This document shows positions 1 to 10,228 of a DNA stretch of 10,228 nt, piece by piece. The notes below the pieces were generated by a model that was given only the letters and a program-made list of their open reading frames with translations, had not been told where the DNA came from and did no database searches. Source of the DNA: a virus (taxonomy: Duplodnaviria; Heunggongvirae; Uroviricota; Caudoviricetes); IMG/VR virus record IMGVR_UViG_2923302340_000004, positions 1 to 10,228 of that record, one strand, 5' to 3'. A program made the position numbers and the translations under genes. Positions within the stretch are counted from its first letter, which is position 1, and every line of letters begins with the position of its first letter.

Positions 1-1428
1 GTGAAATTATTCAGATTCTCTAAAGTAAAAATTGCAGAACTGCCAACGCCGGAACATGGACAGGTCGAATATGGTGATACGGAGGTTAACGGGCTGCGTG
101 TCCGTGTAGGTTCGTCTGGTGTGAAAAGTTTCTGCATTTCCCGTAAGCGTAACGGAAAATTTATTCGTGCAACGCTGGGGCGTTTTCCTGATCTGAGCGT
201 GGATAATGCCAGGGCTAAAGCTATGGAACTCCTTGGCGAAGTCGCCACAACGGGGATAAATCCGAACATAGCAAAGCGCACTAACAACAAGGCCATGATA
301 ACGCTGAGTGAGGCGATTGACGCCTACGTAAAAAATCGTGGCCACCGCCTGAAACCCGCCACAGAAAAACAGTACCGCAGCATATTACAGAATTATTCCG
401 GTGACTGGATGGCCCATACCCTCGCCAGTATTTCCCGCGAACGGGTGGAACAACGGCATAAGGCCATCACTGATGGGGCTGTATGGTTCGGTGCTGATAA
501 AACCACGTTACGGGCTGGGGTTGGTACAGGAAGCAAGGCACAGGCCGATTTATGGGCGCGTGCGCTACGTGCTGTGTGTCGGTTTGCGCATGATCATTAC
601 CGTGATGATGCGGGTAATACTCTTTTACCGGATCCGCCGACTCTGGTACTGAGCACCAAGCGCCAGTGGCACGGAACGGTAAGAAAAACGGAACGTATCC
701 GCCTGCATGATTTTCCCCGCTGGTTTGCTGCTGTAGCTGCTGTGCGCGACCAGGGCGAACAGGAAAGGGATGATATAGCGGTGACGGTATGCGATGCCGT
801 GGAAATGGCGCTTTTTACCGGACTGAGGAAATCAGAAATTTTTGGCCTTACGTGGGATCGAGTGAATATGGGCGGTCGTTTTTTCTGGATAGACACCACG
901 AAAAACGGGGATCCGCTCGAATTACCGATTACTGATACGTTGCGGGAAATGTTCCACCGCCGACTGAAAATAAAAAACGCTGATGATGTTCTGCTGTTTC
1001 CTGGTGTGAAGGGAGTGATTCAGGAAACACGGCACATCATAGACCGGATAAGCGCGGCTACTGTTCCAGAGTCGAACGATGAAATGCTCTCCCCTGTACC
1101 ATTCAAATGGCACGATGCACGCCGGACGTTCGGAACGGTTGCCGAACTGGTGGGCGTGGGCAATTACATCCTCAAGCGCCTGATGAATCACCGTACTATG
1201 CGAAGTGCTGACGTAACGCAGGGGTATTTACATTTTGGTGCTGATGAACTGCTGGAGCCAGCGTCACGGATAGAACGGGCAATTCTGGAACATGCCGGGC
1301 TGGTGGAGAGTAAAAAATCTATCGATGCGCAATTGCTTTCCGCACTGGAGAGTATGAGTGACAGTGAGAAACGCGCATTACTATTTAGTATCGTTAATTC
1401 AAATGGTGATTTGAATGTCAGAAAATAA
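1..1428 (+). CDS. int: Tyrosine site-specific integrase, P4-type (N-terminal arm-binding domain plus catalytic core)
   Basis: 475-aa ORF. N-terminus (KIAELPTPEHGQVEYGDTEVNGLRVRVGSSGVKSFCISRKRNGKFIRATLG...INP) matches the arm-type DNA-binding domain pattern of P4-family integrases. C-terminal core has the H-x-x-R box (WHDARRTFGT) and a terminal Tyr motif (DVTQGYLHF). Starts with GTG at the window edge, so the true start could be at or just upstream of position 1. Has a ~50-aa C-terminal extension relative to typical members. Confidence 0.9.
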   Translation: MKLFRFSKVKIAELPTPEHGQVEYGDTEVNGLRVRVGSSGVKSFCISRKRNGKFIRATLGRFPDLSVDNARAKAMELLGEVATTGINPNIAKRTNNKAMITLSEAIDAYVKNRGHRLKPATEKQYRSILQNYSGDWMAHTLASISRERVEQRHKAITDGAVWFGADKTTLRAGVGTGSKAQADLWARALRAVCRFAHDHYRDDAGNTLLPDPPTLVLSTKRQWHGTVRKTERIRLHDFPRWFAAVAAVRDQGEQERDDIAVTVCDAVEMALFTGLRKSEIFGLTWDRVNMGGRFFWIDTTKNGDPLELPITDTLREMFHRRLKIKNADDVLLFPGVKGVIQETRHIIDRISAATVPESNDEMLSPVPFKWHDARRTFGTVAELVGVGNYILKRLMNHRTMRSADVTQGYLHFGADELLEPASRIERAILEHAGLVESKKSIDAQLLSALESMSDSEKRALLFSIVNSNGDLNVRK

Positions 1429-2101
1429 AATCATTGCTGCAATAGAATTTGACCATAATGATGCGAAGGATATGAATACTATTGCAGATTATATTAGAGA
1501 TGAACTGGCGTCTTCTTTTGTAAAAAAAACGATATGCGATATGGCAAATATCACACCATCTAAAATGTCTCTGGAGGAGAGATTATCATTATCGTCAGAG
1601 ATAGAAAATAAGGATTTAAAGGTTAATATTTCTGTATGTGCCGGGTATGGAGATGATTTTGATAAAAAATTTAATAGTGCATATTCAGAATTCAATGATA
1701 TTTTGAAAGCTGCCATTATATTTGAAGTTCTTGGTTTCAACAGACTTGCAGATCAGTTACGTGAAAGATATGCGATTTTAGTGTCGGAGAATTTATTAAA
1801 ATCAGTACGTGATATAGCTAATGTAAAGAAAATTATCAGTGAAGACCGTAGTAAAGCAAAGAAAGGAAAAACAAACAGGCATAAATCAACAGCGTTATCT
1901 ATAGCTTGTAACACTTGGAAAAAATACCCTAATGCCAGTTTACCCGGGCTATCCGCAGAGATATACGCGCATTTACGCAATAAATGGAATGATGTCCCTG
2001 TAGTTGGGACTATAGAGAGATGGCTTAAGGAGTCGGGGATGAATCCAAAATCCCCGCAAAAAAACAGGGATTTTAAGTTAGTTATTGGAGACAAAGAATA
2101 A
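1415..2101 (+). CDS. Hypothetical protein, AT-rich accessory (cargo) gene between int and alpA
   Basis: 228-aa ORF. ATG at 1415 is preceded by GGTGA and overlaps the integrase stop by 14 nt. The gene is visibly AT-rich (roughly one-third GC by eye) against ~50% GC flanks. No motif I can confidently assign; C-terminal third is basic (KKGKTNRHK...) and could be nucleic-acid binding. Confidence 0.6.
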   Translation: MSENKIIAAIEFDHNDAKDMNTIADYIRDELASSFVKKTICDMANITPSKMSLEERLSLSSEIENKDLKVNISVCAGYGDDFDKKFNSAYSEFNDILKAAIIFEVLGFNRLADQLRERYAILVSENLLKSVRDIANVKKIISEDRSKAKKGKTNRHKSTALSIACNTWKKYPNASLPGLSAEIYAHLRNKWNDVPVVGTIERWLKESGMNPKSPQKNRDFKLVIGDKE

Positions 2102-2233
2102 ATCCAGTTTTATCCTCTGTAATCCAGATTTCAGTCATGTAAACCAGATATGCGATTTTGTATCTGGTTTTCCTGTCTTCAAGACTTCCCCATCGCTAAA
2201 TAACGTATACCTGTTCTTAATCAGAAGTATACG
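2101..2233 (+). promoter_or_regulatory. Putative alpA promoter/operator region with direct repeats and a perfect 9-bp inverted repeat
   Basis: Direct repeats AATCCAG(A)TTT at 2101-2111 and 2121-2131. Perfect inverted repeat AACCAGATA (2142-2150) - 10 nt - TATCTGGTT (2161-2169), immediately upstream of the alpA start. Confidence 0.35.
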
Positions 2234-2242
2234 GTGATACTC

Positions 2243-2431
2243 ATGCATTTAGAAAAGATGACCCGCAAAGAAGCTGCCGAGCATTTGGGGGTAAGTGTCC
2301 AGACTCTTGCTAACTGGGCGTGTACTGGCAAGGTAAAAATCCCTTTTCATAAGCTGGGGCGCAAAGTGCTGTATATGCGCACTGATCTCGATGCTTATCT
2401 TGCATCCACTCGCAGAACGCAGACGGTGTAA
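2243..2431 (+). CDS. alpA: AlpA-family / excisionase-like helix-turn-helix DNA-binding protein
   Basis: Short protein with the typical HTH signature MTRKEAAEHLGVSVQTLANWACTGKVKIPFHKLGRKVLYMRTDLDAYL (compare AlpA/HTH_17 pattern: hydrophobic-LGVS-x-T-hydrophobic-x-x-W ... G-R-x-hydrophobic-x-hydrophobic-x-x-x-L-x-x-W/Y-L). Located directly after int and a cargo gene, as in CP4-57-type islands. Start ambiguous: GTG 2234, ATG 2243 (GGTGA upstream) or ATG 2258. Confidence 0.8.
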   Translation: MHLEKMTRKEAAEHLGVSVQTLANWACTGKVKIPFHKLGRKVLYMRTDLDAYLASTRRTQTV

Positions 2432-3142: not shown

Positions 3143-3346
3143 ATGAGAAATTATACCAGACACCCGCAAGGGCGGGACTCGTACAACCTGAATAAATACA
3201 TCTGGCGTTTTATCGCCCTGAGCACGGCACAACCGCGCGTGATTACCATTGAGGCCACCAGCGAACAGGAAGCGCGTCAGCAATCTCCGGCTGGCTGCGT
3301 GATGGTATTCGCCGCCCGTATTCGTCAGGGGGTGTGCCATGCCTGA
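3143..3346 (+). CDS. Icd-like small protein (host cell division inhibitor Icd-like family), tentative
   Basis: 67-aa product MRNYTRHPQGRDSYNLNKYIWRFIALSTAQPRVITIEATSEQEARQQSPAGCVMVFAARIRQGVCHA. The YIW-F-A ... IEA-SE-EAR ... FAAR pattern resembles the short Icd-like proteins annotated in P4-like elements. GAGG lies 7 nt upstream of ATG 3143. The upstream in-frame extension of the ORF track (from 2438) looks non-coding. Confidence 0.55.
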   Translation: MRNYTRHPQGRDSYNLNKYIWRFIALSTAQPRVITIEATSEQEARQQSPAGCVMVFAARIRQGVCHA

Positions 3347-3659
3347 TATGTCAAATTACCAGTACCTGATTAATCCGCATTTTAACTGTGAGCATGATAT
3401 TGCTAAAAAGGTTTATTCCGCTGCTGATGAGGCTACTGACAATATATCAATGGCTGTTGCGTCAATTGGTAGCCTGATGTGGCATGCGTCAGAAAATGAG
3501 GACTATGACGAAAAGGCCATGCGCATTGATATGGGTAATATCGGTTTGTTACTGGCAATGCTTGGGCGGTTTGATATTTCGTTACGGTGCACCATTGAAA
3601 ATGCCACAGATGCATTAAATGCCATAAAGAAAGCGAATACTGATTCAAATCGGGGATAA
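3339..3659 (+). CDS. Hypothetical protein
   Basis: 106-aa ORF. Its ATG overlaps the icd-like stop (ATGCCTGA), suggesting translational coupling. A G-rich SD-like stretch lies upstream. Acidic protein with no recognisable motif. Confidence 0.55.
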   Translation: MPDMSNYQYLINPHFNCEHDIAKKVYSAADEATDNISMAVASIGSLMWHASENEDYDEKAMRIDMGNIGLLLAMLGRFDISLRCTIENATDALNAIKKANTDSNRG

Positions 3660-3665
3660 ATAATC

Positions 3666-3965
3666 ATGAGAACATATTTATCTGGCTTGACTGCCAGCGG
3701 TTATGCACACCCCAAAATTATCCCCGGCGCTATTTATCTGGATAAGAACGGTAACAGAGTAACGGTAAAAGAACTGATGTTTGACCGTGTGTATTTTATT
3801 CGTGATGGCTATTCATTTCATAGTTCGCTGAACGTGGAGATCTTTATTAGCAGATTCCGGCGGGAAATCCCGACTTCCAGAAATAACCATGTGTCACGTG
3901 TGGATGTGGATAAAAAACTGCAGGAACTGAAAAACATGATTGCCGCGTGGAGAGAGCCGAAATGA
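3666..3965 (+). CDS. Hypothetical protein (small, precedes the primase)
   Basis: 99-aa ORF. GGGGA SD lies 9 nt upstream of ATG 3666. Its stop TGA (3963-3965) overlaps the primase ATG (3962) as ATGA. No motif confidently assigned. Confidence 0.55.
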   Translation: MRTYLSGLTASGYAHPKIIPGAIYLDKNGNRVTVKELMFDRVYFIRDGYSFHSSLNVEIFISRFRREIPTSRNNHVSRVDVDKKLQELKNMIAAWREPK

Positions 3966-6085
3966 AAAAAGCGCCAAATTTAAAACACCAGCCGCGTGAC
4001 AAAATGACGGAAGTCATCATTTTTGCGGGTAGTGATGCGTGGGCACATGCGAAGCAGTGGCAGGAACAGGACGGGCGACTGGCTGGCGATAACGTGCCTC
4101 CTGTCTGGCTTGGAGAGCAACAACTTGCCGAACTGGACAACCTGCAAATCGTACCGGACGGACGCTATCGCGTGCGTCTCTATCAGGCGGGGTTATTGCG
4201 TCCGGGGCTTGTTAATACCATCGGGCAGAAACTGGCAGCGGCAGGTGTCAGGGATGCTGATTATTACCCTGAAGGAATGCACAGCCAGAAACGGGAGAAC
4301 TGGCGCGAATATCTGGAACGTGAACGGGCAGAGCAGGCGGAAAAGAAAAAGGTAGTTGAACTGCCTGTAAAGAAAAAAGAGCCATGCTATCAGGATGATG
4401 AATTAAAGCCCCGCGTTGAAAGTCGCGTCGATGGTGTTTTCTGGGTAACGCCCAAAGTGGATAAGCAGTCAGGCGAAATTATCCGGCCTGAGACGTGGTT
4501 ATGTTCTCCGCTTGAACTACTGGGAACGGGGACGATCGGTAAAGAGCATTACCGCGTGATGCGCTGGAAAAAATTAGCAAACCATGAAGTCATCACAATG
4601 GCGATCCCGTGTGGTGGCATTGGCGACCGTGACGGCTGGCGGTTGCTTAAAGATCACGGGCTGAACGTGACAACAAACGGCAAATACAGGGCTATCCTGG
4701 CTGACTGGATGCAGTTAAGCGGAAGCCATGAGGAATGGCAGCTAAGCACAACAACGGGCTGGCATTTTGGCGCGTATATCATGCCGGACGGCTCAATCAT
4801 TGGTGATTCTGAAAAACCGATCCTGTTTACCGGAAAAAGTGCCGCTGTTAATGGCTATTCGGTTGCGGGTACGGCGGAGGGCTGGCGCGACTGCGTGGCG
4901 CGGCTGGCTGGTGGCAATCCGTCCATGATGCTGGGTGTTGCCACGTCACTGGCAGCACCTTTGATTGGCCTTGTTGGTGCTGACGGCTTCGGGGTACATC
5001 TTTTCGAACAGTCATCGGCAGGGAAAACCACCACGCAGAACATCGCATCCAGTTTATGGGGAGAGCCGGACGCACAACGGCTGACCTGGTACGGCACAGC
5101 GTTAGGTATCGCTAACGAGGCAGAGGCGCACAACGACGGGCTGTTACCCCTGGATGAAATAGGCCAGGCCGGAAACGCGCGGGAGGTGTCCACGTCAGCC
5201 TATACGTTGTTTAACGGTTCCGGGAAATTACAGGGGGCGAAGGACGGCGGCAACCGGGAGATAAAACACTGGCGCACGGTGGCAATCAGCACCGGAGAAA
5301 TGGACGTTGAGACATTCCTCAAAACGGAGGGGATAAAAGTCAAAGCGGGGCAGCTTGTCCGCCTGCTTAACGTTCCGATGGAAAAAGCCACGCACTTTCA
5401 CGAATACAGCACCGGAAAGGCGCACGCAGACGCGTTAAAGGATGCCTGGACAGAAAATCACGGGGCAGCGGGTCGTGAGTGGGTTAAATGGCTGGCAGGC
5501 CACCAGCAGGAGGCAAAGGATACGGTAAGGGAATGCCGCGAACGGTGGCGCAACCTGATACCGGAGAGCTACGGCGAGCAGGTCCACCGCGTGGGTGAGC
5601 GTTTCGCCATACTGGAGGCCGCGCTTGTGCTTTCCGGTCATGTAACTGGCTGGGCCGCGCAGGAATGCCGGGACGCAATACAGCATAACTTTAATGCCTG
5701 GGTGAAGGAGTTCGGCACGGGTAACAGGGAATTTAAACAGATGGTTGAACAGGCTGAGGCGTTTTTGTCGTCGTTCGGGTTCAGTCGATACCTTCCTTAC
5801 CCAAACAGTGATGAACGTGATTTACCGATTAAAGACCTTGCCGGATACAGAAAGGGGAGTATCAGAAATGAAGATGATGAGTTCCGTTTTTACACGTTTC
5901 CTCATGTGTTTGAGGGGGAGATCGCACAGGGATTTAACCCGTCCCACTTTGCCCGCGCGTTGAGTGCTGCCGGAATGCTGGAAGCGGGTAACGATCGCCG
6001 TTACAAGAAAAAGGCTCTCGGCAAAATTGGGGGGAAGCAGCATGTTTTTTACGTGCTGATGTTCCAGCCTGAGGCAGAAGATTAA
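3962..6085 (+). CDS. Replication protein: primase/helicase-like with a central P-loop NTPase domain (PICI Pri-Rep / P4 alpha-like role)
   Basis: ~708-aa ORF. ATG 3962 is preceded by GAGAG and overlaps the upstream stop; the ORF-track start is a GTG at 3947. Walker A-like FEQSSAGKTTTQ and Walker B-like GLLPLDEIGQ lie in the middle of the protein. Its size and position immediately upstream of an iteron array are typical of satellite/plasmid primase-helicases (DUF927-like). The family name is from memory. Confidence 0.8.
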   Translation: MKKAPNLKHQPRDKMTEVIIFAGSDAWAHAKQWQEQDGRLAGDNVPPVWLGEQQLAELDNLQIVPDGRYRVRLYQAGLLRPGLVNTIGQKLAAAGVRDADYYPEGMHSQKRENWREYLERERAEQAEKKKVVELPVKKKEPCYQDDELKPRVESRVDGVFWVTPKVDKQSGEIIRPETWLCSPLELLGTGTIGKEHYRVMRWKKLANHEVITMAIPCGGIGDRDGWRLLKDHGLNVTTNGKYRAILADWMQLSGSHEEWQLSTTTGWHFGAYIMPDGSIIGDSEKPILFTGKSAAVNGYSVAGTAEGWRDCVARLAGGNPSMMLGVATSLAAPLIGLVGADGFGVHLFEQSSAGKTTTQNIASSLWGEPDAQRLTWYGTALGIANEAEAHNDGLLPLDEIGQAGNAREVSTSAYTLFNGSGKLQGAKDGGNREIKHWRTVAISTGEMDVETFLKTEGIKVKAGQLVRLLNVPMEKATHFHEYSTGKAHADALKDAWTENHGAAGREWVKWLAGHQQEAKDTVRECRERWRNLIPESYGEQVHRVGERFAILEAALVLSGHVTGWAAQECRDAIQHNFNAWVKEFGTGNREFKQMVEQAEAFLSSFGFSRYLPYPNSDERDLPIKDLAGYRKGSIRNEDDEFRFYTFPHVFEGEIAQGFNPSHFARALSAAGMLEAGNDRRYKKKALGKIGGKQHVFYVLMFQPEAED

Positions 6086-6463: not shown

Positions 6464-6706
6464 ATGAAGGCAAACCGCAAACAACCACACTACCGCGCTA
6501 TTGACCTTACAGAGCACTGGCTGAGAGTGGCGATAAAAATCATCGACCGAAACACGGGGGAAGGATATGCAAAAGCACATCCCGAACTGATAAGCGCATT
6601 CATGACAACGGCAGCTGCAAACTTTGCCACGTTGACAGAACGGGAGATTGCCGAAGCGGAACAGGTGACAACCATCAACGTTAAAACCGGAGAGCAGATA
6701 GCATGA
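6464..6706 (+). CDS. Hypothetical protein
   Basis: 80-aa ORF immediately after the iteron region. Its stop overlaps the SSB-like start (ATGA). Weak SD; function unknown. Confidence 0.45.
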   Translation: MKANRKQPHYRAIDLTEHWLRVAIKIIDRNTGEGYAKAHPELISAFMTTAAANFATLTEREIAEAEQVTTINVKTGEQIA

Positions 6707-7125
6707 CAGCACAGATAGCGGCTTACGGACGGCTGGTGGCTGACCCGCAGTTAAAGACCACCAGCAAGGGTACACAAATGGCGATGGCTAGTATGGCGGT
6801 CCCCCTTCCGTGCAGCCAGGCAGATGACGGAACGGCGATGATGTGGTTATCCGTCCTGGCGTTTGGCAGACAGGCCGACGCACTGGCAAAACACCACAAA
6901 GGCGAACTGGTGAGCGTGGCGGGTAACATGCAGGTAAGCCAGTGGACAGGCCAGAACGGCGAAACGCGGCAGGGCTGGCAGGTTATCGCAGACAGCGTGA
7001 TCAGTGCGCGAACAGCGCGACCGGGCGGCAAAAAAGGCCAGCAGGGGCAGGCCACTGACGCATTGAACAGGGCAAAACAACAGTCGGGGAATGATGATCC
7101 GTACGGCGATAATATACCGTTTTAA
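6703..7125 (+). CDS. ssb: Single-stranded DNA-binding protein (SSB-like, short form)
   Basis: 140 aa. OB-fold region aligns by eye to E. coli SSB: GRLVADPQLK...MAMASMAV against GNLGQDPEVR...VANITLAT, W..V.AFG..A..LAKHHKGELVSVAGNMQVSQWTGQNGETRQ against [43 protein letters not shown]. Gly/Gln-rich linker and acidic C-terminal tail DDPYGDNIPF (SSB ends in DDDIPF). GGAGAG SD lies 8 nt upstream. Confidence 0.75.
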   Translation: MTAQIAAYGRLVADPQLKTTSKGTQMAMASMAVPLPCSQADDGTAMMWLSVLAFGRQADALAKHHKGELVSVAGNMQVSQWTGQNGETRQGWQVIADSVISARTARPGGKKGQQGQATDALNRAKQQSGNDDPYGDNIPF

Positions 7126-7142: not shown

Positions 7143-7171
7143 ATGCCGGAAAAAAATAGATTTTCCGGCAT
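7143..7171. terminator. Perfect 11-bp stem-loop (ATGCCGGAAAA / TTTTCCGGCAT, 7-nt loop) after ssb; possible terminator or RNA structure
   Basis: Inverted repeat at 7143-7153 and 7161-7171, 18 nt after the ssb stop. There is no U-tract 3' of the stem on the + strand (the T-run is inside the stem); a T-rich run follows on the - strand. The terminator call is therefore weak. Confidence 0.3.
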
Positions 7172-7336
7172 GCTACATAAATCCCGACCAAAGGAAGTAA
7201 ATACATTAACACGAATTATCAGCACTGAAGTTGTTACGGCATATTTTATACAACATTGCACTTGGTTGCATGTATTTGCATAGCAGACATCGGTAATAGA
7301 ATATATTCACAATTATTTGTAATGAATGTAAAGAGG

Positions 7337-8383
7337 ATGAGTATGGTTGATTTATATTCGCCTACACAGCTTGTGCAGGTGGCTAATGCTGAAGATGTGC
7401 AAAAAAAATTAAATGCGTTGTTTACCAGTTTGTTTTTCACTCGCTCGGTAATGTTTGAATCGAGAGACATTATTCTTGATACGATCGACGATCCAAATAT
7501 CCCGATCGCGGCGTTTTGCTCTCCTATGGTGGGCAGTAAAGTTTCACGAGATGAGGGATACGAATCAAAAACAATTCGTCCAGGTTATATGAAGCCGAAA
7601 AGCAGCATTGATCCAAATAAGTTAGCTGTGCGCCCTGCTGGTGTGTCACCTGAGCAATACAATGCTTTTGGGGCGCGTAATATTAAAGTTAAACAGGCGA
7701 TTGTAAATCAGGCTAAAGCTATTCGTGCACGTATTGAATGGCTTGCTGTTCAGGCAATCACAACGGGGAAAAATATCATTGAGGGCGATGGTATTGAACG
7801 TTATGAGCTGGACTGGAATATAAAACCACAAAATATCATCACTCAGTCTGGCGGTACTGAGTGGTCAGGTAAGGATAAAGAAACTTTTGATCCAAATGAT
7901 GATATTGAGAGCTACGCAGAATTTAGTGAGGGCGTCACTAATATCATCATTATGGGTGGTAATGTATGGAAGAAATACCGTTCATTCAGAGCGATAAAAG
8001 AGGCTTTGGATACCCGTCGTGGCTCTAATTCCGAACTGGAAACGGCCCTTAAAGACCTTGGTGATTCGGTGAGTTTTAAAGGGTATATGGGCGATGTTGC
8101 GATTGTTGTTTACAGCGGGCGTTATACCGACGAGGACGGAACTGAAAAATATTTCCTTGATCCTGATTTGATGGTGCTTGGCAATACGGCTCTTCAGGGG
8201 ATTGTCGCTTATGGCGGTATTCAGGATCCGGAGCTAATCCGGATGGGGCTGACTAAAGCCGAACTTGCACCGAAAAACTATATTGTGCCTGGTGATCCGG
8301 CTATTGAATATGTGCAGACACATTCAGCACCACAGCCAATACCGGCCCGCATCAATCGTTTTGTTACCGTTCGCATTGGCTAA
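7337..8383 (+). CDS. Major capsid protein, lambda gpE family
   Basis: Extensive collinear similarity to lambda gpE as I recall it: MSM start, then NIITQSGGTEWSGKDKETFDPNDDIESYA, LDTRRGSNSELETALKDLG, YMGDVAIVVYSG, MVLGNT, GDPAIEYVQTHSAP against lambda NITQSGGTEWSKRDKSTYDPTDDIEAYA, LDTRRGSNSELETAVKDLG, MYGDVAIVVYSG, MVLGNT, GDPAREFTMIQSAP. SD AAGAGGA lies at 7331-7337; the start is ATG 7337 or, with better spacing, ATG 7343. The ORF-track start at 7256 is an artefactual extension. Confidence 0.9.
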   Translation: MSMVDLYSPTQLVQVANAEDVQKKLNALFTSLFFTRSVMFESRDIILDTIDDPNIPIAAFCSPMVGSKVSRDEGYESKTIRPGYMKPKSSIDPNKLAVRPAGVSPEQYNAFGARNIKVKQAIVNQAKAIRARIEWLAVQAITTGKNIIEGDGIERYELDWNIKPQNIITQSGGTEWSGKDKETFDPNDDIESYAEFSEGVTNIIIMGGNVWKKYRSFRAIKEALDTRRGSNSELETALKDLGDSVSFKGYMGDVAIVVYSGRYTDEDGTEKYFLDPDLMVLGNTALQGIVAYGGIQDPELIRMGLTKAELAPKNYIVPGDPAIEYVQTHSAPQPIPARINRFVTVRIG

Positions 8384-8392
8384 GGGGGAGCA

Positions 8393-8734
8393 ATGGCTAC
8401 TCATTACACTGAACTCATGTCTGGCACTGAAGCACTGGTTACTACGCTGGGGATATTTTCAGCCAATAAAGGGGTAATACCTGCGTTTACGCCACTGATG
8501 CAGGAAGATGCAACTGGTGCGCTAGTGGTATGGGATGGAACGAGCGCAGGCAAAGCGGTTTATGTTTCCGCTGTACAAATCGACACAGCGAAAAAAACAC
8601 AGGCACAGGTTTATAAGACAGGTGTTTTAAATGTTGATGCTCTGAACTGGCCTGAGTCTGTAAAAGAACTGTCGGCAAAGGTTGCCGCGTTTGTTGGCTC
8701 AGGTATTTCTGTTCAGCCGCTGGCTCGTGTGTAA
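8393..8734 (+). CDS. Head decoration protein, lambda gpD family
   Basis: 113 aa. PAFTPLMQEDATGALVVWDGTSAGKAVYVSAVQ...YKTGVLNVDALNWPE...AAFVGSGISVQ aligns by eye with lambda gpD [32 protein letters not shown]...YKSGTFRYEDVLWPE...TAFAGTAISIV. Strong SD TAAGGGGGAG is coupled to the capsid gene stop. Confidence 0.8.
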   Translation: MATHYTELMSGTEALVTTLGIFSANKGVIPAFTPLMQEDATGALVVWDGTSAGKAVYVSAVQIDTAKKTQAQVYKTGVLNVDALNWPESVKELSAKVAAFVGSGISVQPLARV

Positions 8735-8745
8735 AGGGGGATACA

Positions 8746-9129
8746 ATGCAGAATCATTACAATGACCTTAAGCCAATTGCCGAAATGATGTATCCGGATC
8801 CAGCAGTAGAGGAATTAAAGGCTATTGCTGACAAAATGCGTTTAAGTGAACGCCTTGTTGATATGAATCAGGTGATGGAACTTACTACCCTTAGCCGTCG
8901 CACATTGCTAAACCTTGAGGCTCGCGGAGAGTTCCCCGAACGCGTACAGGTTACGGAAGGGCGTAAGGCCTGGTATTTAAGTGAAGTGATCGACTGGATA
9001 AACAATATTCCTCGAGCTTCTGAATATTGCCGCGTACCTGTCCCAAAAAAGCCAGATGCGGCGCTATGCCTCAAGATTGAGCGTGTACGCCGCAATGCAT
9101 GGGATGGTCGCTATAAGCTGATTGGTTGA
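8746..9129 (+). CDS. Second AlpA-like / excisionase-type HTH protein with N- and C-terminal extensions
   Basis: 127 aa. Central segment VDMNQVMELTTLSRRTLLNLEARGEFPERVQVTEGRKAWYLSEVIDWINN matches the AlpA/HTH_17 signature (TGLSRSTIYRL...G.FP.P...G.R...W...E...W). SD TAAAGGGGGA is coupled to the gpD-like stop. Lies immediately upstream of the cos site. Confidence 0.65.
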   Translation: MQNHYNDLKPIAEMMYPDPAVEELKAIADKMRLSERLVDMNQVMELTTLSRRTLLNLEARGEFPERVQVTEGRKAWYLSEVIDWINNIPRASEYCRVPVPKKPDAALCLKIERVRRNAWDGRYKLIG

Positions 9130-9182
9130 TGAAATTAGGGCCCGTTCTGGCTGGCGGGTCCTTTCCGGCGATCCGGTAGGCT

Positions 9183-9230
9183 ACGGGGCGGCGACCTTGC
9201 GGATTTTCGCTATTTATGAGCCTTTTCGGG
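9183..9230. other. cos site: lambda-type cosN (12-nt cohesive-end sequence GGGCGGCGACCT at 9186-9197) with flanking sequence, followed by a divergent cosB-like region
   Basis: ACGGGGCGGCGACCTTGCGGATTTTCGCTATTTATGAGCCTTTTCGGG is near-identical over ~35 nt to the lambda left end GGGCGGCGACCTCGCGGGTTTTCGCTATTTATGAAAATTTTCCGG (from memory). It sits ~135-150 nt upstream of the Nu1-like gene, as in lambda. Sequence beyond ~9220 diverges from lambda cosB. Confidence 0.75.
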
Positions 9231-9330
9231 TTGGTGGTGGTGGTTTTGTTTTTCGCTCTATCTCTATGAATAAAAAGGGAAAGATAACACCAACACACCA
9301 ACCTGAAACCTTAACTAAGTGGGGATATTG

Positions 9331-9873
9331 ATGAAATCGCACCTGATGAACAAAAAAACTATGGCGCAAAGCTGCCGCGTAAGTGCGACAGCGTTCGACA
9401 AGTGGGGAGTAACTCCCGTTGAGCGTAAAGGCCGTGAGGCGTTTTATGATGTTGCTAGCGTGATAGACAATAGGGTTAACAATGCAATTAACCAGCTTAC
9501 AAACGACAAAGGCGAGATTGATGATGATGAACTTTTACGCGTAAGAATCAGATTAATGACGGCCCAGGCGGAAGCGCAGGAACTTAAAAACGAGCGCGAA
9601 CGCGGCGAGGTGATTGATACAAAGTTTTGCATCTACGCGATTTCAAAACTAGCGAGTCAGATTTCATCAATCATGGACAGCCTCCCGCTCACAATGCAAA
9701 GGCGCTTTCCCGATATAAAGCCGTATATGCTGGATGAACTAAAAAGGGAAATAGCCAAAGCATGTAACGCATGTGCAAGACTTGACGAAAACCTGCCACA
9801 GATACTGGCTGATTACCTGATGGAAACTACCGGAAACGCGCCTGAGAAGTTGCTAGAGAACAAAGGCGAGTAA
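9331..9873 (+). CDS. Terminase small subunit, lambda Nu1 family (satellite TerS / packaging-redirection candidate)
   Basis: RLMTAQAEAQELKNERERGEVIDTKFCIYAISKLASQISSIMDSLPLTMQRRFPDI matches lambda Nu1 RLTRAQADAQELKNARDSAEVVETAFCTFVLSRIAGEIASILDGLPLSVQRRFPEL. The N-terminus MNKKTMAQ... corresponds to the Nu1 wHTH start MEVNKKQLAD. GGGGA SD precedes ATG 9331; alternative ATG at 9346; the ORF-track start is GTG 9319. Confidence 0.85.
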   Translation: MKSHLMNKKTMAQSCRVSATAFDKWGVTPVERKGREAFYDVASVIDNRVNNAINQLTNDKGEIDDDELLRVRIRLMTAQAEAQELKNERERGEVIDTKFCIYAISKLASQISSIMDSLPLTMQRRFPDIKPYMLDELKREIAKACNACARLDENLPQILADYLMETTGNAPEKLLENKGE

Positions 9874-9946: not shown

Positions 9947-10228
9947 ATGACTGAAGCCGAACTACTGGGATTAATCCGCCGCGTCGTCGGAATCAGCCAG
10001 CAGCATGACGAACAGGCCACACAGCCGGACAGCGTGACCGCTGAAAATTATGTGCGTGTTGTTGCTGAGGTGATGCGCCGTGATGGTATTGAGCTTAACG
10101 GCGTGGATATGCGCAACATACGAACAAGAGTCCTTGAGTTGCTGGCATACCGTCGCCGTTCTCAACAACGGAGGGAGAGCGCGAAAAATACTTACCAGTG
10201 GAAGAAGCCGGAACGGTTGCGGCGGTAG
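9947..10228 (+). CDS. Hypothetical small basic protein downstream of TerS
   Basis: 93-aa ORF with GAGGG SD 6 nt upstream of ATG 9947; stop TAG at 10226-10228 is the last codon of the window. Arg-rich C-terminus. No similarity I can recognise to the lambda gpA N-terminus. Confidence 0.45.
   Translation: MTEAELLGLIRRVVGISQQHDEQATQPDSVTAENYVRVVAEVMRRDGIELNGVDMRNIRTRVLELLAYRRRSQQRRESAKNTYQWKKPERLRR

What the first reader, a model, noticed from the sequence alone, without database searches (positions are those of the whole stretch)
8746..9129. Second, extended AlpA-like HTH gene wedged between the decoration gene and cos
The element has two AlpA-family genes. This one (127 aa, with N- and C-terminal extensions) sits where lambda has no regulator, directly upstream of cosN (the cosQ side). 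It could be a late activator of the capsid/packaging module, a cos-proximal DNA-binding accessory for terminase, or the excisionase proper.
Basis: inference. Interest (0 to 1): 0.55.

Follow-up and report, generated by a model that had tools for sequence, protein, structure and literature searches.

The report
Satellite capsid-module AlpA-like regulator gene
A real, conserved 127-residue DNA-binding protein sits at the end of the capsid/decoration operon of a common E. coli phage satellite (PICI); it most likely switches that operon's own promoter through a conserved array of 10-bp-phased repeats, rather than acting as the excisionase or a packaging helper.

Summary
ORF 8746-9129 is a real gene with an AlpA-type winged helix-turn-helix (residues 36-85) plus N- and C-terminal extensions. 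It lies 11 nt after the decoration gene and 56 nt before a lambda-type cosN.

The window is a Gram-negative phage-inducible chromosomal island (PICI). Across about 100 loci from at least nine enterobacterial genera, the gene always follows one lineage of PICI capsid and decoration genes. It combines freely with at least four integrase/AlpA types, several replication modules, and any packaging gene right of cos (Nu1-like TerS, Rpp-like, or none). This argues against it being the element's excisionase or a TerS/cosB partner.

Carriers share a conserved array of 2-5 direct repeats (TTRYAY) in exact 10-bp register, abutting the -35/-10 of the capsid-gene promoter (7246-7281). It is the only such array in the window and is absent from sister modules that carry the unrelated c1501 in this slot. 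A distant member with a changed recognition helix has changed repeat units.

Best reading (about 0.45): a module-specific regulator, probably a positive-feedback activator of the capsid operon, analogous in logic to P4 delta. No binding or expression was tested. The function is uncharacterised in the literature I could search.

The parts
8746..9129 (+). The gene in question ('HTH127'): 127-aa AlpA-fold protein, last gene of the capsid-decoration-HTH cluster
   Evidence: ORF; Pfam Phage_AlpA above cut-off; phrog_2790 E 1.8e-48; annotated in RefSeq as 'helix-turn-helix transcriptional regulator' WP_001179421.1 in a 99%-identical locus; conserved family
8851..9000 (+). Winged helix-turn-helix core (residues 36-85), including the near-invariant recognition helix TTLSRRTLLNLE and the wing RVQVTEGRKAW
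   Evidence: Pfam stretch 36-85; 40-45% identity to PDB 8c3t, the GIsul2 excisionase; invariant columns; dN 0.025-0.07; AF2 model H40-46, H51-59, E67-70, E73-77, H78-86
9001..9126 (+). C-terminal extension with the conserved WINNIP...P..P...L.LK.ER.R motif and a predicted basic helix (residues 105-119)
   Evidence: Alignment A1; retained in the remote members P0100 and P0101; AF2 helix 105-119 at moderate confidence
7246..7281 (+). Array of four direct repeats in exact 10-bp register (TTATAC, TTGCAC, TTGCAT, TTGCAT): the proposed operator for HTH127
   Evidence: The only TTRYAY-N4-TTRYAY hits in the window, three overlapping; 0.12 expected, 0 of 200 shuffles reach three. These are the most conserved intergenic columns. 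At least two units in register in 45/46 distinct carrier loci against 0/26 non-carrier sister modules. Register shown for nine groups
7297..7302 (+). -10-like hexamer TAGAAT of the capsid-operon promoter (TGATAGCAT, an extended -10, in most relatives); the last repeat doubles as a -35-like TTTGCA
   Evidence: Promoter scan TTTGCA-16-TAGAAT at 7275-7302; conserved columns in A3. The transcription start was not determined
7143..7171 (+). Stable hairpin between the replication module (ssb) and the capsid promoter; a possible insulator or terminator
   Evidence: Inverted repeat; -16.2 kcal/mol, z -5.5; analogous GC hairpins in L005 and L007. No U-tract on the + strand, so function is uncertain
7343..8383 (+). 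Lambda-E-like major capsid protein gene, first gene of the cluster
   Evidence: Pfam Phage_cap_E E 2.8e-41; the 346-aa homologue is annotated from this ATG
8393..8734 (+). Lambda-D-like head decoration protein gene
   Evidence: Pfam HDPD E 2.3e-15; phrog_49
9156..9197 (+). Lambda-type cosQ-like (GGGTCCTTTCCGG, 9156-9168) and cosN (GGGCGGCGACCT, 9186-9197)
   Evidence: Sequence; 9154-9232 is 88.6% identical to lambdoid phages; conserved in all PICI loci, including EcCICFT073, which lacks HTH127. The cosQ and cosN labels rest on my own knowledge of lambda
9224..9308 (+). cosB-like region with inverted repeat arms TTTCGGGTTGGTG and CACCAACCTGAAA: probable sites for the satellite's own TerS, not for HTH127
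   Evidence: Inverted repeat; present only where the Nu1-like terS is present; no match in phages
9331..9873 (+). Nu1-like small terminase gene, right of cos
   Evidence: Pfam Phage_Nu1 E 6.8e-24; phrog_57 E 1.3e-53; the 180-aa homologue is annotated 'terminase small subunit'
2234..2431 (+). Int-proximal 65-aa HTH_17/excisionase-family gene: the canonical 'alpA' position of the element
   Evidence: Pfam HTH_17; TIGR01764 'excise' 39.2 bits against a cut-off of 28.8

Best explanation
HTH127 is a transcription regulator specific to the satellite's capsid module. It is made from the capsid-decoration-HTH gene cluster. I infer that it binds head-to-tail, as excisionase/AlpA-fold proteins do, to the 10-bp-phased direct repeats (TTRYAY, 7246-7281) that abut the -35/-10 of that cluster's own promoter. 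The most likely sign is activation with positive feedback: a trickle of read-through from the AlpA-driven early operon makes some HTH127, which then turns the capsid/decoration (and possibly downstream terS) genes fully on. This is the same logic as P4 delta, which sits inside the sid-delta-psu capsid operon that it activates. Shown here: the gene, its fold family, its strict linkage to the capsid genes, and the conserved array and its restriction to carriers. Inferred: that HTH127 binds the array, the sign of regulation, the transcription start, and the read-through trigger.
For: (1) The AlpA-type wHTH core is under very strong purifying selection.
(2) Synteny is absolute. In the window, L001, L005-L015, about 45 metagenome loci, and the remote members P0100 and P0101, the gene directly follows the lineage-A capsid and decoration genes.
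(3) The array is the only one of its kind in the window. It holds most of the invariant intergenic columns; the rest are in the -10 region, the RBS and the start codon. At least two units are in register in 45/46 distinct carrier upstream regions, against 0/26 sister modules that lack the gene and 3/2000 shuffles.
(4) Where I counted it by eye (window, L005, L010), the distance from the array to the -10-like hexamer is 16-17 or 27 nt, which keeps one helical face. The repeats extend upstream from the -35 region, an activator-like geometry (read).
(5) The int-proximal AlpA/HTH_17 proteins of carriers have three unrelated recognition helices, so they are poor candidates for one conserved array. 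HTH127's helix is near-invariant.
(6) Partial covariation: P0101 (SRQT in place of SRRT) has units TTAGAC/TTGTGC instead of TTATAC/TTGCAC. The 38%-identical 167-aa lineage-C protein has no such array; its capsid upstream region carries CACCACTG repeats instead.
(7) From published knowledge of lambda Xis, Pukovnik Xis, BldC and RdfS, this fold binds phased direct repeats as head-to-tail oligomers. These proteins are among the structural neighbours.
Against: There are no binding, expression or TSS data. The link between array and gene is largely one phylogenetic block (lineage A against B/C), so the 45/46 versus 0/26 contrast is not 70 independent events. In most E. coli copies the promoter-proximal unit is degenerate (TTCGCAT). 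In L098 the spacing to the best -10 candidate is 25 nt, which is off phase. The E. coli form of the array also contains the lambda CII motif TTGC-N6-TTGC. A host OmpR/PhoB-type response regulator could also read 10-bp direct repeats. A regulator encoded as the last gene of the operon it activates needs an external trigger, which I have not identified.
Confidence: 0.45

Rival explanations
1. Recombination directionality factor: HTH127 is the excisionase of the satellite, or a stand-in excisionase for the helper prophage, as shown for alpA_1 of EcCIMP1.
For: The closest solved structure and best sequence match is an excisionase (8c3t, GIsul2; 40-45% identity). PHROG families hit are labelled 'excisionase and transcriptional regulator'. 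There is a precedent for a second AlpA in a PICI supporting helper excision (PMC11773190).
Against: Carriers have at least four integrase types: 475-aa (window, L006, L007, L098), 409-aa (L001), 411-aa capsid-gene-targeting (L009-L015) and 407-aa (L096). Each has its own int-adjacent AlpA/HTH_17 gene. Here that gene passes the TIGR01764 excisionase model. The repeat motif associated with the gene occurs nowhere near the element's ends. tblastn finds no relative in 50,697 phage genomes, unlike EcCIMP1 alpA_1, which resembles its helper's Xis.
Confidence: 0.12
2. Packaging accessory: HTH127 binds at or beside cos (the cosQ side, or as a bending factor in cosB) and helps terminase recognise, cut or terminate at the satellite cos.
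Against: What lies right of cos assorts freely. Among distinct loci: HTH127 with Nu1-like terS 28, with an Rpp-like gene 3, with neither 14; the unrelated c1501 with the same terS 10, with rppA 5, with neither 4. The DNA between the stop codon and cosQ is not conserved among carriers. The conserved cosQ-cosN core is shared with EcCICFT073 and with lambdoid phages that lack the protein. The cosB inverted repeats track terS, not HTH127. In EcCICFT073 the equivalent slot (c1501) was disrupted by tetA and the island still transferred (PMC6092414); this concerns the slot only, since c1501 is a different protein.
Confidence: 0.12
3. The array is read by something else, and HTH127 regulates other targets. 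Candidate readers are helper CII (the TTGC-N6-TTGC motif), the int-proximal AlpA, or a host response regulator. HTH127's targets could then be helper or host genes, for example for interference.
For: The window array contains two overlapping perfect TTGC-N6-TTGC boxes (that CII recognises this motif is my own knowledge). Helpers are lambdoid. PICI induction is known to depend on an unidentified helper signal (PMC6092414).
Against: The CII box is not conserved across carriers. L008 has TTGT units, L009 TTAT, L096 TTAG/TTGT, and L098 has no two adjacent TTGC units. From my recollection of lambda pRE, the boxes here sit about 5 bp out of register with the CII geometry. Int-proximal AlpA proteins differ in their recognition helices. 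No phased array was found in about 100 kb of two CFT073 lambdoid prophages or in the helper flanks of L010-L015.
Confidence: 0.18

Closest known systems
PICI master regulator AlpA (EcCICFT073 AlpA; Pfam PF05930)
   Same: Same Pfam family and fold, with 32-37% identity to int-proximal AlpAs of related PICIs. A satellite-encoded DNA-binding protein. EcCICFT073 AlpA activates its own promoter (PMC6092414), the behaviour proposed here.
   Different: About twice as long, with N- and C-terminal extensions. It lies at the far end of the element inside the capsid cluster, not next to int. It is present in addition to an int-proximal AlpA/HTH_17 gene. Its recognition helix is different.
GIsul2 excisionase (PDB 8c3t) and other AlpA/Xis-fold recombination directionality factors (RdfS, Pukovnik Xis, TorI)
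   Different: HTH127 is not linked to any one integrase type. Its associated repeat array sits at a promoter, not in an att arm. It has extra terminal segments.
P4 delta (late transactivator inside the sid-delta-psu operon)
   Same: Functional analogy only, from my own knowledge of P4. A satellite regulator encoded among capsid-remodelling and decoration genes, acting on the promoter of its own operon.
   Different: Delta is an Ogr-type zinc-finger protein that binds a dyad near -55. HTH127 has no Cys4 motif, belongs to a different fold, and its proposed site is a direct-repeat array. It is not homologous.
Rpp (RppA/RppC) of E. coli PICIs
   Different: No sequence similarity: no BLAST alignment to RppA, and RppC (in the PDB as 6hn7) was not among the matches at E <= 1 in the PDB sequence search. 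Rpp lies right of cos, with its wHTH at the N-terminus and a C-terminal coiled coil (PMC6739421). HTH127 lies left of cos and co-occurs with TerS, with Rpp-like genes, or with neither.
EcCIMP1 alpA_1 (second AlpA of a PICI)
   Same: The only published case I found of a second AlpA-family gene in an E. coli PICI. It is dispensable for the PICI cycle (PMC11773190).
   Different: alpA_1 is on the opposite strand at the element's end, resembles the helper's Xis, and supports helper excision. HTH127 is co-oriented within the capsid cluster and has no phage relatives.

Membership tests
Pfam Phage_AlpA (PF05930) | Score above the family's gathering threshold over the about 51-residue wHTH | tested here: met
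   35 bits against a cut-off of 21, residues 36-85, profile 2-51/51
Recombination directionality factor / excisionase | Genetic linkage to, and co-variation with, a cognate integrase | tested here: not met
   The same protein family occurs with at least four integrase types, each with its own adjacent AlpA/HTH_17 gene
Recombination directionality factor / excisionase | Binding sites in an att arm; stimulates excision | not testable with these tools
   The associated repeat motif is found only at 7246-7281, not near the window ends.
Gram-negative PICI master regulator AlpA | Int-proximal gene at the head of the rightward operon, induced by the helper, required for induction | tested here: not met
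   That position is occupied by the 65-aa gene at 2234-2431. HTH127 lies about 6.5 kb downstream. The induction requirement was not testable
Rpp (redirecting phage packaging) | Sequence similarity to RppA/B/C; N-terminal wHTH plus C-terminal coiled-coil dimeriser; gene right of cos | tested here: not met
   No BLAST alignment to RppA (for the terS slot; HTH127 gave no rppA-like hit). RppC was not recovered in the PDB sequence search at E <= 1. The wHTH is central, not N-terminal. The gene lies left of cos
Small terminase, Nu1 type (PF07471) | Match to the Nu1 profile | tested here: not met
   Only Phage_AlpA matched HTH127. The Nu1 match belongs to the next gene, 9331-9873
Ogr/Delta late activators | Cys4 zinc-finger protein | tested here: not met
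   The sequence has two Cys and no CxxC pairs, and no Pfam match. The resemblance is functional only
Autoregulated activator with a phased direct-repeat operator (functional class) | Conserved repeats at activator-like positions of its own operon's promoter, co-inherited with the protein | tested here: met
   Binding itself was not tested

The most novel reading that the evidence does not exclude
HTH127 is bifunctional. Besides switching the capsid promoter, it acts on the cosQ side of the satellite's cos as an Xis-like DNA-bending filament. This would influence where terminase stops, and so how many satellite genomes are packed into a helper-sized head. It would explain why even a distant 167-aa relative keeps the position immediately before cos.
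Probability: 0.08. Interest if true: 0.7.

Novelty: new variant of a known kind. Interest (0 to 1): 0.42.

Why it matters
Gram-negative PICIs are described as having a single regulator, AlpA, next to the integrase. The role and control of their capsid and decoration homologues are unexplained, since deleting them in EcCICFT073 had no phenotype. The segment from the decoration gene to cos (8393-9330) matches 793 of 5,426 complete E. coli genomes, 390 of them over at least 80% of its length. A dedicated second-tier regulator with an identifiable operator there would give a concrete handle: a promoter-reporter pair and a deletion. These could show when and why the satellite expresses its own capsid genes. 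It would also reveal a P4-delta-like regulatory logic reached with an unrelated protein fold. Finally, it warns that 'AlpA family' annotations cover proteins with different jobs.

Tried and rejected
(1) Rpp identity. The PDB sequence search and BLAST against EcCICFT073 c1501 and RppA gave no similarity. The EcCICFT073 slot holds an unrelated 137-aa protein.

(2) Two 50-kb fetches of CFT073 missed the island. It was found at NC_004431 1377930-1388654.

(3) Phage relatives. tblastn against 50,697 phage genomes found none.

(4) The genome-contig scan returned only 4 loci. The metagenome scan with the capsid protein was far more useful.

(5) Lambda CII as reader of the array. The motif is present in E. 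coli copies but not conserved across carriers.

(6) Sigma-54 reading of TTGCAC-N-TTGCA. Rejected by eye, because the GG/GC spacing does not fit and the GG is not conserved.

(7) An intrinsic terminator between the gene and cos. No convincing one was reported on the + strand. The strong RNA fold of 9100-9340 comes from the cosB inverted repeats.

(8) Hairpins upstream of the capsid promoter as terminators. They are stable in the window, L005 and L007, but lack U-tracts, so this is inconclusive.

(10) Rfam: no RNA family in the window.

(11) NCBIfam: no model for this protein.

(12) Supplements and later PICI papers: no mention of this gene.

Full report
**What the window is.** The 10.2-kb window has the layout of a Gram-negative phage-inducible chromosomal island (PICI). 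Its genes, in order:
- tyrosine integrase (1-1428)
- an int-proximal 65-aa HTH_17 gene (2234-2431)
- DUF927 primase (3947-6085)
- SSB (6703-7125)
- lambda-E-like capsid gene (7343-8383)
- lambda-D-like decoration gene (8393-8734)
- the gene in question (8746-9129)
- a lambda-type cos
- a Nu1-like small terminase (9331-9873)
- a 93-aa gene of unknown function (9947-10228)

The segment 8393-9330 matches 793 of 5,426 complete E. coli genomes, 390 of them over at least 80% of its length. In a 99.7%-identical locus, RefSeq calls the gene a 'helix-turn-helix transcriptional regulator', and the element ends just after the 93-aa gene.

**Checking the observation.**
- The ORF is 127 aa with a good Shine-Dalgarno sequence.
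- Pfam Phage_AlpA matches residues 36-85 above the curated cut-off.
- phrog_2790 matches almost end to end.
- The nearest solved structure is 8c3t, deposited as the GIsul2 excisionase, at 40-45% identity over the wHTH.
- An AF2 model of moderate confidence (pLDDT 65.6) shows two N-terminal helices, the wHTH, and a C-terminal helix at residues 105-119.
- Homologues in many enterobacterial genera keep the full 127-aa architecture. The recognition helix and wing are almost invariant, and the C-terminal motif L.LK.ER is conserved.
- dN in the core is 0.025-0.07 while dS is saturated.
- A profile search of 1.84 billion representatives finds five proteins below E 1e-30, some of them truncated, and a couple of further full-length-type members. 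It then drops to generic AlpA domains, so this is a narrow family.
- The stop codon lies 56 nt before GGGCGGCGACCT. The stretch 9154-9232 is 88.6% identical to lambdoid phages, but the cosB side is not.

One correction: the first 'AlpA' is HTH_17/TIGR01764 by profile, so it is related only by fold.

**Relation to the model island.** I located EcCICFT073 in CFT073. It has the same capsid-decoration-X-cos-Y-93aa order. There, X is c1501, an unrelated acidic 137-aa protein. Y is RppA (144 aa), which is unrelated in sequence to the Nu1-like gene here. The published work inserted tetA in c1501 and still saw transfer. It found that only c1503 (RppA) blocks lambda (PMC6092414; PMC6739421). None of the PICI papers I could read discusses the gene studied here. 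One paper states that typical E. coli PICIs encode only one AlpA. It describes a differently placed second copy that supports helper excision (PMC11773190).

**Comparative anatomy.** I gathered loci from three sources: species genomes, exact-protein look-ups, and a capsid-protein scan of metagenomes. Three lineages of the capsid module emerged:
- Lineage A (capsid at least 75% identical to the window): the decoration gene is always followed by HTH127.
- Lineage B (about 55% identical): followed by c1501.
- Lineage C (about 57% identical): followed by a 167-169-aa AlpA-like protein, 38% identical to HTH127.

Even the remote family members P0100 and P0101 (about 50% identity) sit in the same capsid-decoration-HTH order.

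Everything else varies among carriers:
- At least four integrase types, each with its own adjacent AlpA or HTH_17 gene, and with three unrelated recognition helices among them.
- Several primase or helicase types.
- The gene right of cos. Among distinct loci the counts are HTH127 with terS 28, with an Rpp-like gene 3, with neither 14; c1501 with terS 10, with rppA 5, with neither 4.

cos therefore behaves as a recombination joint, and HTH127 belongs to the capsid side of it. This is the main argument against both the excisionase and the terminase-accessory readings. In addition, the DNA between the stop codon and cosQ is not conserved among carriers. The conserved cosQ-cosN core is shared with islands and phages that lack the protein. 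The cosB inverted repeat (9224-9236 and 9296-9308) tracks terS.

**The promoter array.** I aligned the region upstream of the capsid gene across genera. The invariant columns lie mostly in a stretch of direct repeats, with the rest in the -10 region, the ribosome-binding site and the start codon. The repeats are in exact 10-bp register. In the window they read TTATAC, TTGCAC, TTGCAT, TTGCAT at 7246, 7256, 7266 and 7276, and the last doubles as a -35-like element 16 nt from TAGAAT.
- The pattern TTRYAY-N4-TTRYAY occurs nowhere else in the window. Three overlapping hits were found, 0.12 are expected, and 0 of 200 shuffles reach three.
- The stricter first scan found arrays of three or more units only upstream of the PICI capsid gene of carriers, in the roughly 390 kb of loci L001-L015 plus the window.
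- At least two units in register occur in 45 of 46 distinct lineage-A upstream regions (37 have three or four). This compares with 0 of 26 lineage-B/C regions and 3 of 2,000 shuffles. The single exception is an artefact of a capsid gene cut by a contig end.
- In the three loci I counted by eye, the spacing from the last unit to the -10-like hexamer is 16-17 nt (window, L010) or 27 nt (L005). This keeps the array on one helical face. L098 does not fit, at about 25 nt.
- P0101, whose recognition helix reads SRQT instead of SRRT, has five phased units of a different sequence, TTAGAC/TTGTGC.
- Lineage C has CACCACTG repeats instead.

From published work, proteins of this fold (lambda Xis, Pukovnik Xis, BldC, RdfS) bind such phased direct repeats head to tail.

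**Mechanism proposed.** I propose that HTH127 binds this array and regulates its own gene cluster. Activation with positive feedback is the more likely sign, for two reasons. The repeats lie upstream of and abutting the -35. The promoter in most relatives is an extended -10 (TGATAGCAT) without a good -35. A stable hairpin between ssb and the array may insulate the cluster from the early operon, but this is weak evidence.

The logic resembles P4 delta within sid-delta-psu, with an unrelated protein. The steps not shown are binding, the sign of regulation, the TSS and the trigger. The association is largely one inherited block, so its statistical weight is limited. I give this reading 0.45.

**Rivals.**
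- *RDF of the satellite or helper (0.12).* Supported by the 8c3t similarity and the EcCIMP1 precedent. Opposed by independence from integrase type, by the int-proximal excisionase-family gene, and by the absence of phage relatives.
- *cos/packaging accessory (0.12).* Supported by position and shared fold with TerS and RppC DNA-binding domains. Opposed by free assortment with the packaging gene and the lack of a carrier-specific conserved site near cos.
- *Array read by helper CII, AlpA or a host regulator, with HTH127 acting elsewhere (0.18).* The E. coli array contains TTGC-N6-TTGC, but that box is not conserved across carriers.

The remaining probability covers functions not considered here.

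**Novelty and score.** The protein is a member of the AlpA family by profile. It has a distinctive extended architecture, a fixed position inside a satellite capsid cluster, and a candidate operator. I found no description of it in the literature available to me. I rate it a new variant of a known kind, of moderate interest (0.42). It is not surprising that a satellite carries another HTH regulator. It does, however, make the unexplained PICI capsid/decoration module directly testable.

Noticed in passing
L005, L008, L009-L012, L014, L015 (e.g. L010 1027-1302 and 12726-13490): In many loci the satellite carrying this module is inserted inside the major capsid gene of a lambdoid (or, in L009, P2-tailed) prophage, co-oriented with the late operon. 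This is the 'helper-embedded PICI' configuration of PMC10111431. In L013 the equivalent left flank is disrupted by IS elements. The same capsid-decoration-HTH module therefore occurs in both chromosomal and helper-embedded satellites.
   Followed up: partly
window 9130-9330 versus L004 25498-25660 and the loci: The genes left of cos (HTH127 or c1501) and right of cos (Nu1-like terS, Rpp, or none) occur in all combinations, with terS up to 98% identical across the two left-hand types. The conserved cosQ-cosN core appears to act as a recombination joint between module halves.
   Followed up: yes
window 9224-9236 and 9296-9308: A 13-nt inverted repeat (TTTCGGGTTGGTG / CACCAACCTGAAA, 59 nt apart) lies downstream of cosN, at positions reminiscent of lambda R3/R2. 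It is present only in loci with the Nu1-like terS, so these are probably the satellite TerS recognition sites.
   Followed up: partly
L067 4894-5397; L068 5142-5651; upstream regions L067/L068 about 3250-3400: A third capsid-module lineage carries a longer (167-169 aa) AlpA-like protein in the same pre-cos slot. Three copies of CACCACTG/CAGTGGTG lie upstream of its capsid gene in place of the TTGCA array.
   Followed up: partly
window 2100-2175: Upstream of the int-proximal 65-aa gene there are repeated AATCCAG(T/A)TTT / AAACCAGATAT units and an inverted TATCTGGTTT. These are candidate operator sites of the early (alpA-type) promoter.
   Followed up: no
window 1415-2101: A 228-aa ORF overlaps the integrase stop and has no Pfam or PHROG match. 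It has weak homologues in the same post-int position in L006 and L007, and unannotated 242-247-aa genes occupy that position in L096-L098. Function unknown.
   Followed up: no
window 9947-10228; L004 26374-26655: The terminal 93-aa gene (phrog_1561, no Pfam match) is conserved at 78-100% in both HTH127-type and c1501-type modules, and with either terS or rppA. It is a constant, uncharacterised partner of the cos-distal half.
   Followed up: no
L008 10681-11829 (-); L010 11779-12540 (-): Accessory genes at the right end of related satellites include a TIR-domain protein (with DUF3298) and an Abi_C protein. These are probable anti-phage cargo.
   Followed up: no
window 7256-7342 and 9319-9330: The mechanical ORF list starts the capsid gene at TTG 7256 and terS at GTG 9319. 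Annotated near-identical homologues (346 aa and 180 aa) and the ribosome-binding sites indicate ATG 7343 and ATG 9331. The 7256-7342 stretch is promoter DNA, not coding sequence.
   Followed up: yes
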